Assembly (NCBI RefSeq): GCF_009914755.1
Contig: NC_060932.1
Origin: the human T2T-CHM13v2.0 reference genome, Homo sapiens
Length of the DNA: 64,000 nt
Direction: 5' to 3' (one strand)
Shown: positions 24,701-63,630 of the stretch, one piece after another
Position numbering within the stretch: the first letter of the stretch is position 1
Layout of the letters: each line of letters begins with the position of its first letter
Made by a program: the position numbers and the translations under genes
The notes under the pieces: model-generated
Told to the model about the DNA's origin: nothing
Database searches by the model: none
The model's input: only the letters and a program-made list of their open reading frames with translations

Positions 24701-26925
24701 AGAATGCTTGTGATTTTTGTACATTGATTTTGTATCCTGAGACTTTGCTGAAGTTGCCTATCAGCTTAAGGAGATTTTGGGCTGAGACAATGGGGTTTTC
24801 TAGATATACAATCATGTCATCTGCAAACAGGGACAATTTGACTTCCTCTTTTTCTAATTGAATACCCTTTATTTCCTTCTCCTGCCTAATTGCCCTGGCC
24901 AGAACTTCCAACACTATGTTGAATAGGAGTGGTGAGAGAGGGCATCCCTGTCTTGTGCCAGTTTTCAAAGGGAATGCTTCCAGTTTTTGCCCATTCAGTA
25001 TGATATTGGCTGTGGGTTTGTCATAGATAGCTCTTATTATTTTGAAATACGTCCCATCAATACCTAATTTATTGAGAGTTTTTAGCATGAAGGGTTGTTG
25101 AATTTTGTCAAAGGCTTTTTCTGCATCTATTGAGATAATCATGTGGTTTTTGTCTTTGGCTCTGTTTATATGCTGGATTACATTTATTGATTTGCGTATA
25201 TTGAACCAGCCTTGCATCCCAGGGATGAAGCCCACTTGATCATGGTGGATAAGCTTTTTGATGTGCTGCTGGATTCGTTTTGCCAGTATTTTATTGAGGA
25301 TTTTTGCATCAATGTTCATCAGGGATATTGGTCTAAAATTCTCTTTTTTTGTTGTGTCTCTGTCTGGCTTTGGTATCAGGATGATGCTGGCCTCATAAAA
25401 TGAGTTAGGGAGGATTCCCTCTTTTTCTATTGATTGGAATAGTTTCAGAAGGAATGGTACCAGTTCCTCCTTGTAGCTCTGGTAGAATTCGGCTGTGAAT
25501 CCATCTGGTCCTGGACTCTTTTTGGTTGGTAAGCTATTGATTATTGCCACAATTTCAGCTCCTGTTATTGGTGTATTCAGAGATTCAACTTCTTCCTGGT
25601 TTAGTCTTGAGAGGGTGTATGTGTCCAGGAATTTATCCATTTCTTCTAGATTTTCTAGTTTATTTGCATAGAGGTGTTTGTAGTATTCTCTGATGGTAGT
25701 TTGTATTTCTGTGGGATCGGTGGGGACATCCCCTTTATCATTTTTTATTGCGTCTATTTGATTCTTCTCTCTTTTTTTCTTTATTAGTCTTGCTAGCGGT
25801 CTATCAATTTTGTTGATCCTTTCAAAAAACCAGCTCCTGGATTCATTAAGTTTTTGAAGGGTTTTTTTGTGTTTCTATTTCCTTCAGTTCTGCTCCGATT
25901 TTAGTTATTTCTTGCCTTCTGCTAGCTTTTGAATGTGTTTGCTCTTGCTTTTCTAGTTCTTTTAATTGTGATGTTAGGGTGTCAATTTTGGATCTTTCCT
26001 GCTTTCTCTTGTGGGCATTTAGTGCTATAAATTTCCCTCTACACACTGCTTTGAATGTGTCCCAGAGATTCTGGTATGTTGTGTCTTTGTTCTCGTTGGT
26101 TTCAAAGAACATCTTTATTTCTGCCTTCATTTTGTTATGTACCCAGTAGTCATTCAGGAGCAGGTTGTTCAGTTTCCATGTAGTTGAGCCATTTTGAGTG
26201 AGATTCTTAATCCTGAGTTCTAATTTGATTGCACTGTGGTCTGAGAGATAGTTTGTTATAATTTCTGTTGTTTTACATTTGCTAAGGAGAGCTTTACTTC
26301 CCAGTATGTGGTCAATTTTGGAATAGGTGTGGTGTGGTGCTGAAAAAAATGTATATTCTGTTGATTTGGGGTGGAGAGTTCTGTAGATGTCTATTAGGTC
26401 TGCTTGGTGCAGAGCTGAGTTCAATTCCTGGGTATCCTTGTTAACCTTCTGTCTCGTTGATCTGTCTAATGTTGACAGTGGGGTGTTAAAGTCTCCCATT
26501 ATTAATGTGTGGGAGTCTAAGTCTCTTTTTAGGTCACTCAGGAGTTGCTTTATGAATCTTGGTGCTCCTGTATTGGGTGCATATATATTTAGGATAGTTA
26601 GCTCTTCTTGTTGAATTGATCCCTTTACCATTATGTAATGGCCTTCTTTGTCTCTTTTGATCTTTGTTGGTTTAAAGTCTGTTTTATCAGAGACTAGGAT
26701 TGCAACCCCTGCCTTTTTATGTTTTCCATTGGCTTGGTAGATCTTCCTCCATCCTTTTATTTTGAGCCTATGTATGTCTCTGCACGTGAGATGGGTTTCC
26801 TGAATACAGCACACTGATGGGTCTTGACTCTTTATCCAATTTGCCAGTCTGTGTCTTTTAATTGGAGCATTTAGTCCATTTACATTTAAAGTTAATATTG
26901 TTATGTGTGAATTTGATCCTGTCAT
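21710..26925 (-). pseudogene. L1 ORF2p (APE endonuclease, RT, Cys-rich domain), disrupted
   Basis: [19 protein letters not shown] start, [11 protein letters not shown] motif, ...[10 protein letters not shown] end; +1 frameshift near 25862, nested insertion 23163-24535, nonsense TAA at 22268-22270. Confidence 0.97.
23163..24535 (-). mobile_element. Nested 5'-truncated, 5'-inverted L1HS-Ta with 3' transduction
   Basis: ACA diagnostic (CTAATGTGTCATC, ~23361) and G diagnostic (TATACTCTAAG, ~23279). TSD TTGTATCCTCTTTT at 23149-23162 and 24536-24549. Sense part 23271-24058, inverted part 24058-24537. Confidence 0.95.
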
Positions 26926-26988
26926 TATGATGTTAGCTGGTGGTTTTGCTCGTTAGTTGATGCAGTTTCTTCCTAGTCTCGATGGTCT

Positions 26989-28005
26989 TTACATTTTGGC
27001 ATGATTTTGCAGCAGCTGGTACCGGTTGTTCCTTTCCATGTTTAGTGCTTCCTTCAGGAGTTCTTGTAAGGCAGGCCTGGTGGTGACAAAATCTCTCAGC
27101 CTTTGCTTGTCTGTAAAGTATTTTATTTCTCCTTCACTTATGAAGCTTAGTTTGGCTGGATATGAAATTCTGGGTTGAAAATTCTTTTCTTTAAGAATGT
27201 TGAATATTGGCCCCCACTCTCTTCTGGCTTGTAGGGTTTCTGCCAAGAGATCCGCTGTTAGTCTGATGGGCTTCCCTTTGAGGGTAACCCGACCTTTCTC
27301 TCTGGCTGCCCTTAACATTTTTTCCTTCATTTCAACTTTGGTGAATCTGACAATTATGTGTCTTGGAGTTGCTCTTCTCGAGGAGTATCTTTGTGGCGTT
27401 CTCTGTATTTCCTGAATCTGAACGTTGGCCTGCCTTGCTAGATTGGGGAAGTTCTCCTGGATGATATCCTGCAGATTGTTTTCCAACTTGGTTCCATTCT
27501 CCGCATCACTTTCAGGTACACGAATCAGACTTAGATTTGGTCTTTTCACATAGTCCCATATTTCTTGGAGGCTTTGCTCATTTCTTTTTATTCTTTTTTC
27601 TCTAAACTTCCCTTCTCGCTTCATTTCATTCATTTCATCTTCCATCACTGATACCCTTTCTTCCAGTTGATCGCATCAGCTTCTGAGGCTTCTGCATTCT
27701 TCACGTAGTTCTTGAGCCTTGGTTTTCAGCTCCATCAGCTCCTTTAAGCACTTCTCTGTATTGGTTATTCTAGTTATACATTCTTCTAAATTTTTTTCAA
27801 AGTTTTCAACTTCTTTGCCTTTGGTTTGAATGTCCTCCCGTAGCTCAGAGTAATTTGATCGTCTGAAGCCTTCTTCTCTCAGCTTGTCAAAGTCATTCTC
27901 CATCCAGCTTTGTTCCGTTGCTGGTGAGGAACTGCGTTCCTTTGGAGGAGGAGAGGCGCTCTGCTTTTTAGAGTTTCCAGTTTTTCTGTTCTGTTTTTTC
28001 CCCAT
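26989..28005 (-). pseudogene. L1 ORF1p, 338 codons with in-frame premature stop at codon 110
   Basis: MGKKQNRKTGNSK...LQNHAKM; the two ORF-track pieces share a frame and are split by TGA at 27676-27678 (likely CGA>TGA). Confidence 0.97.
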
Positions 28006-61754: not shown

Positions 61755-62061
61755 TTCTGCAAGATCTACAACCTTTGACTGGGGGTGACTGTGCAATGGA
61801 GAAAGGAAATAATCACACCTTTCAGGGACTGCTGGATGCTGGCTCTGAACTGAGATGAATTCCAGGAGACCCAGAATGTTGCTGTGGTCTACCAGGCAGA
61901 GTAGGGACTTGTGGAAGTCAGGTGATCGATGAAGTTTTAGTTCAGGTCCATTTCACAGCGGACCCAATGGGTCCCCAAACCCATTCTGTGGTTATTTCCC
62001 CAGATCTATAATGCACAATTGAAATAGACACACTCAGCAGCTGGCAGAATCTCCACACTGG
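61755..62061 (+). mobile_element. ERVL internal fragment (protease region), decayed
   Basis: Translates QGLLDAGSELR*IPGDP...GPQTHSVVISP...IEIDTLSSWQNLHTG, similar to HERV-L LLDTGS protease. Confidence 0.8.
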
Positions 62062-62341
62062 GAAACCTTCCTAACTTTTTCTCCAAACCTGCTTGCCTCC
62101 CTTATCTGCCCCTCCAAGCTCCTCTCCTCCTCAGCATCAGTTGCCCTTTCTTTGTGCTCTTACAGCATTGTTTATTTATCCTATTAAAATGTACATCACA
62201 CTCTAGTATAATTTTTCATGCAATTGCTTTTCCCATGTGAAGGAAGCAACCATGTGCTATTCTTGCATCTCCAGCACCTTGCTTAGGGGCTAAGTAGATA
62301 AAAAATGTGTGAGGAATAACTGAATGAACCAGTGAATACAT

Positions 62342-63630
62342 CACTGAGCCTCAGGGACATTATGACATTTATCCAGAACTTCCAACACTATGTTGAATAG
62401 GAGTGGTGAGAGAGGGCATCCCTGTCTTGTGCCAGTTTTCAAGGGAATGCTTCCAGTTTTTGCCCATTCAGTATGATATTGGCTGTGGGTTTGTCATAGA
62501 TAGCTCTTATTATTTTGAAATACGTCCCATCAATACCTAATTTATTGAGAGTTTTTAGCATGAAGGGTTGTTGAATTTTGTCAAAGGCTTTTTCTGCATC
62601 TATTGAGATAATCATGTGGTTTTTGTCTTTGGCTCTGTTTATATGCTGGATTACATTTATTGATTTGCGTATATTGAACCAGCCTTGCATCCCAGGGATG
62701 AAGCCCACTTGATCATGGTGGATAAGCTTTTTGATGTGCTGCTGGATTCGGTTTGCCAGTATTTTGTTGAGGATTTTTGCATCAATGTTCATCAAGGATA
62801 TTGGTCTAAGATTCTCTTTTTTTGTTGTGTCTCTGCCTGGCTTTGGTATCAGAATGATGCTGGCCTCATAAAATGAGTTAGGGAGGATTCCCTCTTTTTC
62901 TATTGATTGGAATAGTTTCAGAAGGAATGGTACCAGTTCCTCCTTGTAGCTCTGGTAGAATTTGGCTGTGAATCCATCTGGTCCTGGACTCTTTTTGGTT
63001 GGTAAGCTATTGATTATTGCCACAATTTCAGCTCCTGTTATTGGTGTATTCAGAGATTCAACTTCTTCCTGGTTTAGTCTTGGGAGAGTGTATGTGTCCA
63101 GGAATTTATCAATTTCTTCTAGATTTTCTAGTTTATTTGCGTAGAGGTGTTTGTAGTATTCCCTGATGGTAGTTTGTATTTCTGTGGGATCGGTGGTGAT
63201 ATCCCCTTTATCATTTTTTATTGCGTCTATTTGATTCTTCTCTCTTTTTTTCTTTATTAGTCTTGCTAGCGGTCTATCAATTTTGTTGATCCTTTCAAAA
63301 AACCAGCTCCTGGATTCATTAATTTTTTGAAGGGTTTTTTGTGTCTCTATTTCCTTCAGTTCTGCTCTGATTTTAGTTATTTCTTGCCTTCTGCTAGGTT
63401 TTGAATGCGTTTGCTCTTGCTTTTCTAGTTCTTTTAATTGTGATGTTAGGGTGTCAATTTTGAATCTTTCCTGCTTTCTCTTGTGGGCATTTAGTGCTAT
63501 AAATTTCCCTCTACACACTGCTTTGAATGCGTCCCAGAGATTCTGGACATTAATCCAAGAAAACCCAGCTCATAGCAGAGCCAGGCCTTGAACCCAGATC
63601 TCAATTTTAAGTCTGGGTTTCCTTTTACAG
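62342..63630 (-). mobile_element. MIR split by the L1 fragment (62342-62372 + 63547-63630)
   Basis: ACTGAGCCTCAGGGA...ATCCAAGAAAACCCAGCT...GCAGAGCCAGGCCTTGAACCCAG joins into one MIR core when the L1 is removed. Confidence 0.65.
62373..63546 (-). mobile_element. Internal L1PA2/3 ORF2 fragment, truncated at both ends, no poly(A)
   Basis: Colinear with 24899-26074 (~23 differences by eye); 359-aa ORF2 piece; flanks GACATTTATCCA/GACATTAATCCA. Confidence 0.96.

What the first reader, a model, noticed from the sequence alone, without database searches (positions are those of the whole stretch)
24899..63546. Distal L1 fragment shares apparently private variants with the full-length L1 37.5 kb away: possible local donor
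Seen: 62373-63546 vs 24899-26074 are ~98% identical (about 23 differences by eye) and in the same orientation. Both have G at 25476/62949 (FYQSYK), G at 25573/63046 (SLNTPIT) and C at 25626/63099. As I recall, L1HS-type ORF2p reads FYQRYK and SLNRPIT, so these would be shared non-consensus transversions. Inference: the neighbouring L1 (its nascent RNA or its DNA) templated repair/insertion in cis soon after arriving, unlike normal dispersed retrotransposition. Alternatives: a short gene-conversion tract (the three sites span only ~150 bp) or a sub-lineage coincidence.
Basis: partly seen in the sequence, partly recalled or inferred. Interest (0 to 1): 0.8.

Follow-up and report, generated by a model that had tools for sequence, protein, structure and literature searches.

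The report
Short gene-conversion patch between neighbouring L1s
Two LINE-1 copies 37.5 kb apart on human chromosome 8 share a pair of rare base changes found together in no other young copy in this genome, most likely because a short stretch was copied between them by gene conversion, a known and ordinary process.

Summary
24899-26074 and 62373-63546 differ at 23 of 1176 columns. Both carry G at 25476/62949 and at 25573/63046. A solved human ORF2p reads R at both codons.

Each G is rare genome-wide: 59 and 132 of 8076 pattern matches. The G-G pair occurs 3 times in 8076: these two copies and one older-type copy on C5. Two other anchor designs agree. The third site, 25626 C, is a common polymorphism.

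The local-donor reading is not supported.
- The fragment ranks 11th among hits to the full-length element, which ranks 34th among hits to the fragment.
- Outside a stretch of at most 229 bp (25381-25609) they share nothing exclusive.
- They differ at lineage-level polymorphisms on both sides: 25278 (T vs G; 62 T, 38 G in 100 lineage copies) and 25689 (T vs C; 6 C of 32).
- The best tree separates them, although AU tests do not reject a clade.

This is a known process. Ape orthologues would settle it.

The parts
24538..28915 (-). 5' part of the full-length L1 (5' UTR, ORF1, ORF2 codons up to about 797)
   Evidence: ORF2p alignment of 24462-25640 to PDB 8uw3 residues 429-797 ends near 24536. The L1 5' start lies at about 28913-28915 with unique DNA beyond it (the 5' start motif is recalled, not tested).
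21480..23158 (-). 3' part of the same full-length L1 (rest of ORF2, 3' UTR, tail at the low-coordinate end)
   Evidence: Direct repeat D7 and inverted repeat I1. The sequence at 23140-23158 continues ORF2 from 24539 onward. The two parts sum to about 6049 bp.
23159..24537 (-). Nested L1 insertion splitting the full-length element. It has a 12-bp target duplication, two T-rich tails around a 26-bp non-L1 stretch, a 3' segment on the minus strand and an inverted piece at 24058-24537.
   Evidence: gtatcctctttt occurs at 23151-23162 and at 24539-24550. Inverted repeat I1 pairs 22283-22762 with 24058-24537 at 98%. This is not part of the finding proper.
24899..26074 (-). Segment of the full-length L1 homologous to the distal fragment (ORF2 codons about 285-676)
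62373..63546 (-). Distal L1 fragment: 1174 bp of internal ORF2 sequence, truncated at both ends, with no poly-A
   Evidence: Homology ends sharply at both ends and the flanks are unique.
25476..25476 (.). Shared rare variant 1 (G; partner 62949). ORF2p R483 reads S.
   Evidence: G in 59 of 8076 copies.
25573..25573 (.). Shared rare variant 2 (G; partner 63046). ORF2p R451 reads T.
   Evidence: G in 132 of 8076 copies. G at both sites in 3 of 8076.
25381..25609 (.). Largest candidate conversion tract in the full-length L1, bounded by differences at 25380 and 25610. It holds one CpG difference at 25490. The minimum tract is 25476-25573.
62854..63082 (.). The same candidate tract in the distal fragment
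   Evidence: Coordinates
25278..25278 (.). Lineage-level polymorphism at which the copies differ (full-length T, fragment G at 62751)
   Evidence: Young-type copies: G 74, T 22, A 4 of the first 100. Narrow lineage: T 62, G 38 of the first 100, and T 17, G 15 of 32.
25689..25689 (.). Lineage-level polymorphism at which the copies differ (full-length T, fragment C at 63162)
   Evidence: C in 6 of 32 unbiased lineage copies. C is also shared by L073-L075, L085, L096, L104 and L108.
62365..62372 (+). Left copy of a possible 8-bp target-site duplication (ACATTTAT), flush with the fragment
   Evidence: It matches 63547-63554 at 7 of 8 bases. The left flank already holds a tandem GACATTAT GACATTTAT, so this stays ambiguous.
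63547..63554 (+). Right copy of the possible target-site duplication (ACATTAAT)

Best explanation
Two L1 copies of the same narrow, young (L1PA2-like) lineage inserted independently about 37.5 kb apart. One is a full-length element, later split by a nested L1. The other is an atypical 1174-bp internal ORF2 fragment.

One of the two then acquired two C-to-G changes 97 bp apart as ordinary post-insertion mutations. A short non-allelic (interlocus) gene conversion followed. Its tract is at least 98 bp (25476-25573) and most simply at most 229 bp (25381-25609). It copied that stretch from one copy to the other, so both now carry G-G on otherwise different backgrounds.

Shown: the G-G combination is exclusive to the pair, sharing is confined to a short stretch, and the copies are discordant at lineage-level sites on both sides. 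Inferred: the conversion event itself, its direction and its date.
For: 1. G-G occurs in 3 of 8076 copies genome-wide. Two are this pair and the third is an older-type copy on C5, in line with the 0.96 expected by chance. repeat the result with other anchors.
2. Each G alone is scattered over old-type and young-type copies: 59 and 132 of 8076, and by eye 15 of the 59 are young-type. That is the pattern of post-insertion mutation, not of a source lineage.
3. The only variants exclusive to the pair are 25476 and 25573. Between 25381 and 25609 the copies differ once, at a CpG. The other 22 differences lie in the remaining 947 bp.
4. The copies differ at 25278 (T/G), where both alleles are common in their own narrow lineage: 62 T and 38 G of the first 100 of 251, and 17 T, 15 G of 32. 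They also differ at 25689 (T/C; C in 6 of 32). The fragment's background matches L072/L074/L104/L108. The full-length element groups with L033/L034/L036/L037, which share 25727 C.
5. By overall similarity each copy has closer relatives elsewhere. The fragment ranks 11th of 40 scored for the full-length query. The full-length element ranks 34th of 40 for the fragment query. The fragment is 17 differences from L072-L074 and 23 from its neighbour.
6. The tract size fits the mean of 250 bp, and the high per-base rate, estimated for human non-allelic gene conversion (abstract of bioRxiv 10.1101/135152). Homogenisation of neighbouring Alu copies is described (passages of PMC6598467 and PMC8230782).
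Against: - AU tests do not reject a clade of the two copies: p 0.40 without the tract (lnL 7.6 lower) and p 0.27 with all columns (lnL 17.2 lower). The alignment carries little phylogenetic signal: 8 of 78 inner branches are starred in the careful tree.
- In an unbiased sample of their narrow lineage (32 full-coverage of 40 fetched) the pair is mutually closest or tied: 23 differences against a median of 36 among the others. This is because both also share the lineage states 25559 C and 25626 C.
- The 25727 C group was found among hits selected for likeness to the full-length element, so it could reflect parallel mutation.
- The reviews I read report the Alu neighbour effect mainly within about 10 kb. 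This pair is 37.5 kb apart.
- The tract limits were defined after seeing the data. One or fewer of 23 differences falling in the tract has p about 0.06.
- The near-absence of differences in the left 379 bp is not explained (p about 0.01).
- No outgroup genome was available, so no pre-conversion state was seen.
Confidence: 0.8

Rival explanations
1. Local donor. The fragment was made from the neighbouring full-length L1, either from its RNA acting in cis or from its DNA as a template for break repair. G-G would then be inherited from the donor.
For: G-G is private to the pair. The fragment is an atypical insertion: internal ORF2 only and no poly-A, so a non-canonical origin is needed anyway. 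Both copies share the narrow-lineage states 25350 T, 25365 T, 25559 C and 25626 C. AU tests do not reject a clade.
Against: The fragment carries G at 25278 and C at 25689, and T at 25727. At all three sites the full-length element carries the other state. For 25278 and 25689 both states are frequent lineage alleles. A copy would need two or three specific changes that happen to recreate another sub-lineage's haplotype. Only 2 exclusive variants are shared, both within 97 bp, against 21 to 23 differences elsewhere. No microhomology to the donor is visible at either junction.
Confidence: 0.06
2. Common rare source. Both copies are offspring of one G-G-bearing source element located elsewhere, or since lost, and they landed 37.5 kb apart by chance.
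For: They share G-G and the same narrow lineage.
Against: No third young G-G copy exists in the assembly under three anchor designs. Two offspring landing within 37.5 kb of each other in 3.1 Gb has a chance of about 2 in 100,000 (my arithmetic). The same discordance at 25278 and 25689 applies.
Confidence: 0.03
3. Assembly or polishing artefact. Reads from one L1 copy were used to correct the other, which transferred a short stretch.
For: The pattern, a short identical patch in two similar repeats, is what such an error would look like.
Against: The fragment is only 1.2 kb with unique flanks, and the copies differ at 23 sites, so long reads should place unambiguously (inference). One CpG difference lies inside the patch.
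Confidence: 0.03
4. Coincidence. The same two C-to-G mutations arose independently in both copies.
For: Each G recurs independently elsewhere (59 and 132 of 8076). One unrelated older copy has both.
Against: Among young-type copies the frequencies are about 0.5% and about 1.3% (by-eye classing). The joint chance for two given copies is therefore of the order of 1 in a billion.
Confidence: 0.005

Closest known systems
Non-allelic (interlocus, ectopic) gene conversion between dispersed repeats, as described for neighbouring Alu elements and for gene duplicates
   Same: Variants that are otherwise private are shared by two nearby paralogous copies over a stretch of about 100-230 bp, with discordant flanks. 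The tract size fits the 250-bp mean estimated for humans (abstract of 10.1101/135152). A proximity effect is described for Alu (passages of PMC6598467 and PMC8230782).
   Different: Here the partners are L1 ORF2 sequences 37.5 kb apart, further than the roughly 10-kb range quoted for Alu. No outgroup shows the pre-conversion state. Both transferred changes are C-to-G, so GC bias plays no part.
Endonuclease-independent (non-classical) L1 insertion, Sen et al. 2007 (PMC1920257)
   Same: The distal fragment is truncated at the 3' end, lacks a poly-A tail, is also 5' truncated by about 2.8 kb, and sits at a site unlike the usual L1 endonuclease target (criteria read in passages of PMC1920257).
   Different: That class is defined by the absence of target-site duplications. 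This fragment is flanked flush by ACATTTAT and ACATTAAT (7 of 8). The authors excluded such loci by design. No empty site was available to check for a target deletion.
Templated sequence insertion or local template switching during break repair
   Different: The piece does not carry the putative template's lineage states at 25278, 25689 and 25727. It has closer matches on other chromosomes.

Membership tests
Non-allelic gene conversion tract | Two paralogous copies share variants that other family members lack | tested here: met
   G-G in 3 of 8076 copies, two of them the pair. Repeated with other anchors.
Non-allelic gene conversion tract | Sharing confined to one short contiguous stretch, with discordant sites on both sides | tested here: met
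   Exclusive sharing occurs only at 25476 and 25573. Differences lie at 25380 and 25610, and lineage-level discordance at 25278 and 25689.
Non-allelic gene conversion tract | Phylogenetic incongruence between tract and flanks | tested here: inconclusive
   The best trees separate the copies, but AU p is 0.40 and 0.27, so a clade is not rejected.
Non-allelic gene conversion tract | The pre-conversion state is seen at the orthologous locus of an outgroup | not testable with these tools
   No ape genome is held; the window's genome has no relatives here.
   Discordant at 25278 and 25689, and at 25727.
   Ranks 11 and 34 of 40 scored. Only 40 of 3108 and 40 of 4114 candidates were scored, so still closer copies may exist.
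Canonical target-primed L1 insertion (for the distal fragment) | Intact 3' end with a poly-A tail | tested here: not met
   The fragment ends at ORF2 codon about 676, and unique DNA follows directly.
Canonical target-primed L1 insertion (for the distal fragment) | Target-site duplication of 7-20 bp | tested here: inconclusive
   A flush 8-bp match of 7 of 8 bases. The left flank already holds a tandem copy of the motif, and no empty site was available.
Endonuclease-independent L1 insertion | 3' truncation, no poly-A, no target-site duplication, atypical cleavage site | tested here: inconclusive
   The first two criteria are met. The duplication criterion is possibly violated. The cleavage site was judged atypical by eye only.
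L1PA2 subfamily | Diagnostic positions of the curated subfamily consensus | not tested
   No repeat library was at hand. 'L1PA2-like' rests on 15-18 differences from the lineage majority in 1176 bp and on recalled subfamily ages.

The most novel reading that the evidence does not exclude
The distal fragment really was copied locally from the neighbouring element, by DNA-templated break repair or by a cis-acting RNA. The lineage-site discordances at 25278 and 25689 would then come from later events. A still bolder variant takes the flush 8-bp duplication plus the 6-bp inverted termini (CCAGAA...TTCTGG) as marks of a cut-and-paste-like local hop of an L1 piece.
Probability: 0.05. Interest if true: 0.6.

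Novelty: new member of a known kind. Interest (0 to 1): 0.25.

Why it matters
It is a clean single-locus example of how neighbouring L1 copies exchange short stretches. A two-variant haplotype that is unique in a complete human genome marks the event.

Such exchanges blur subfamily assignment and age estimates for repeats. They can also mimic 'local donor' relationships. The case shows that exact-pattern counts over a complete assembly can separate private variants from subfamily variants.

It does not change what is known about L1 mobility.

Tried and rejected
- Whole-segment nearest-neighbour searches and distances at first suggested the finding was just subfamily similarity. I dropped that reading once pattern counts showed G-G to be private.
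- The first 49-copy sample (L001-L060) was chosen for likeness to the full-length element, so it is useless for allele frequencies. I replaced it with listings in genome order and with 40 copies fetched in that order. Of those, 32 covered the whole segment. I dropped 8 partial ones: L079, L081, L084, L092, L098, L101, L102 and L115.
- For the trees I left out partial loci (including L066-L069) and dropped 13 of 94 rows that lay more than 30 differences from the majority. The quick tree search was poor, because the constrained tree scored 33.7 lnL higher than the free one. I repeated it with the careful search.
- Counting bases exclusive to a pair within the 81-row alignment did not flag this pair, because that sample was enriched for single-G copies. 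The measure was abandoned.
- I looked by eye for microhomology between the fragment's junctions and the full-length element or L1 RNA and found none beyond one base.
- One literature search failed on term format and was not repeated.
- No search was made for print reports of this particular locus.
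Full report
**What is there**

The window is T2T-CHM13 chr8:96472001-96536000 (hub note; one search places it at G000:C8).

The 'full-length L1' lies on the minus strand. Its 5' end is at about 28915, with unique DNA beyond it. Its ORF2 runs colinear with a solved human ORF2p down to residue 797, at about 24536. There it is interrupted by a nested L1 at 23159-24537.

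The nested L1 has these features:
- a 12-bp duplication, gtatcctctttt, at 23151-23162 and 24539-24550;
- two T-rich tails around a 26-bp non-L1 stretch;
- a 3' segment on the minus strand;
- an inverted piece at 24058-24537.

The host element resumes at 23158 and ends at 21480. Its two parts sum to about 6049 bp. The distal fragment, 62373-63546, corresponds to ORF2 codons about 285-676. It has unique DNA directly at both ends and no poly-A.

**Checking the observation**

The two stretches align over 1176 columns with 21 substitutions and 2 one-base indels. Both carry G at 25476/62949, G at 25573/63046 and C at 25626/63099. The window element reads SLNTPIT and FYQSYK.

**Are the variants private?**

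Exact-pattern counts over the whole assembly give:
- 8076 copies with any base at the two sites;
- 59 with G at the first site;
- 132 with G at the second site;
- 3 with G at both.

The three are the two window copies and C5:163585255. The sequence between the sites in that third copy is of the older type. About 0.96 G-G copies are expected if the sites were independent, so one unrelated double is unremarkable. Two other anchor designs gave only the pair or the pair plus the C5 copy.

By eye, 39 of the first 100 copies listed are of the young type. So are 15 of the 59 site-1 G copies (including the pair) and about 30 of the first 100 site-2 G copies. The single-G copies are scattered over chromosomes and over old and young types. 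That is what post-insertion mutation looks like, not a source lineage.

The third site is different. C at 25626 is a common lineage state: 16 of 49 copies in the biased sample and 5 of 32 in the unbiased one.

**Are the two copies each other's closest relatives?**

By whole-segment similarity they are not.
- With the full-length segment as query, the fragment ranks 11th (2011 bits) behind loci on other chromosomes. Only 40 of 3108 candidates were scored.
- With the fragment as query, the full-length element ranks 34th, and three loci on C2 score 2039 bits. Only 40 of 4114 candidates were scored.
- The fragment is 17 differences from L072-L074 and 23 from its neighbour.

There is evidence the other way. 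In an unbiased sample of their own narrow lineage, the pair is mutually closest or tied. That sample was 40 copies taken in genome order, of which 32 covered the whole segment. The pair differs at 23 sites, against a median of 36 for the other pairs. Both copies are little diverged (18 and 15 differences from the majority). Besides G-G, both also share the lineage states 25559 C (11 of 32) and 25626 C (5 of 32).

**Same origin, or a patch?**

Apart from G-G the copies share nothing exclusive. On both sides of the two G sites they differ at positions where both alleles are frequent among related copies.
- At 25278 the full-length element has T and the fragment G. Among young-type copies the first 100 of 2582 read G 74, T 22, A 4. 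Within the narrow lineage (25350 T, 25363 C, 25365 T) the first 100 of 251 read T 62, G 38.
- At 25689 the full-length element has T and the fragment C. C occurs in 6 of 32 unbiased lineage copies and marks the fragment's nearest relatives: L073-L075, L085, L096, L104 and L108.
- At 25727 the full-length element has C, shared with L033, L034, L036 and L037. Those copies were picked for likeness to it, so this marker is weaker.

A fragment copied from its neighbour would have needed two or three specific changes that happen to rebuild another sub-lineage's haplotype. Two independent insertions explain the discordance directly.

The careful ML tree on 81 rows, all columns included, puts the full-length element with L033/L034/L036/L037 (support 35/84). 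It puts the fragment with L074/L075/L108 (support 60/75).

The trees are weak, however. Holding the pair together costs 17.2 lnL with all columns (AU p 0.27) and 7.6 lnL without the tract (AU p 0.40). A clade is therefore not rejected.

**The patch**

Between 25381 and 25609 (229 bp) the copies differ only at 25490, a CpG site where the fragment has T. The other 22 differences lie in the remaining 947 bp. One or fewer of 23 differences falling in that stretch has p about 0.06, and the limits were set after seeing the data.

If the neighbouring differences arose later, the tract could reach as far as the lineage-level discordant sites, at most 25279-25688. A tract of 98-229 bp fits the mean of 250 bp estimated for human non-allelic conversion, which is also estimated to be about ten times faster per base than point mutation (abstract of 10.1101/135152). 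Conversion among neighbouring Alu copies is described, mostly within about 10 kb (passages of PMC6598467 and PMC8230782). The 37.5-kb spacing here is larger.

**Verdict on mechanism**

I put about 0.8 on independent insertions followed by a short non-allelic gene conversion. The direction and date are unknown.

The rivals, in order:
- A shared rare source with chance proximity: about 0.03. No third young G-G copy exists, and landing within 37.5 kb by chance is about 2 in 100,000.
- A polishing artefact: about 0.03, untested here.
- Independent recurrence: negligible.

**The fragment itself**

It is not a canonical insertion. It has internal ORF2 sequence only and no tail, like the non-classical L1 insertions of Sen et al. 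(criteria read in passages of PMC1920257).

However, it is flanked flush by ACATTTAT and ACATTAAT, a 7 of 8 match, or 8 of 9 if the last G of the fragment is counted. That class is defined by having no duplication. The left flank already reads GACATTAT GACATTTAT, so a pre-existing tandem motif cannot be excluded. An empty site in an outgroup is needed.

**Left unexplained**

- Neither copy has a substitution relative to the majority in the left 379 bp (24899-25277). The fragment has one 1-bp deletion there. About a quarter of the other copies' differences fall in that region (p about 0.01).
- Thirteen of the 23 differences crowd into the 103 bp and 118 bp on either side of the tract (p about 0.005, post hoc).
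- The fragment's termini form a 6-bp inverted repeat (CCAGAA...TTCTGG). In the full-length element the left boundary falls in the centre of CTGG|CCAG.

Noticed in passing
window 23159-24537: A second L1 is nested inside the full-length element's ORF2, at about residue 797. It has a 12-bp duplication (gtatcctctttt), a poly-T of about 34 bases, a 26-bp non-L1 stretch (23194-23219) followed by a second T-rich tail (a candidate short 3' transduction), and an inverted 5' piece at 24058-24537 typical of twin priming.
   Followed up: partly
window 62373-62378 and 63541-63546; 24895-24902: The fragment's ends are a perfect 6-bp inverted repeat (CCAGAA...TTCTGG). In the full-length element the left boundary lies at the centre of the palindrome CTGG|CCAG, and CTGG both precedes and ends the homologous segment. 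This may be chance or a trace of how the piece was cut. It is unexplained.
   Followed up: no
window 24899-25277 vs 62373-62750: Across the left 379 bp the two copies differ only by one 1-bp deletion, and both match the lineage majority. The differences crowd into 25278-25380 and 25610-27 (13 of 23). This could be a second homogenised stretch, or chance (p about 0.01 and 0.005, post hoc).
   Followed up: partly
G000 C1:69784753/69803480, C9:104619121/104746893, C8:120587188/120604850, C3:197788159/197914012 (L113/L114): Several other pairs of similar L1 copies lying 18-128 kb apart turned up among the best hits, or shared bases exclusive within the sample. They may be segmental duplicates or further cases of neighbour homogenisation.
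   Followed up: no
window 25322, 25380, 25614: Three of the full-length element's apparent private A-to-G changes coincide with states carried by a distinct, more divergent group of copies in the sample (L077, L078, L089). They could be retained lineage states or small patches from other donors.
   Followed up: no
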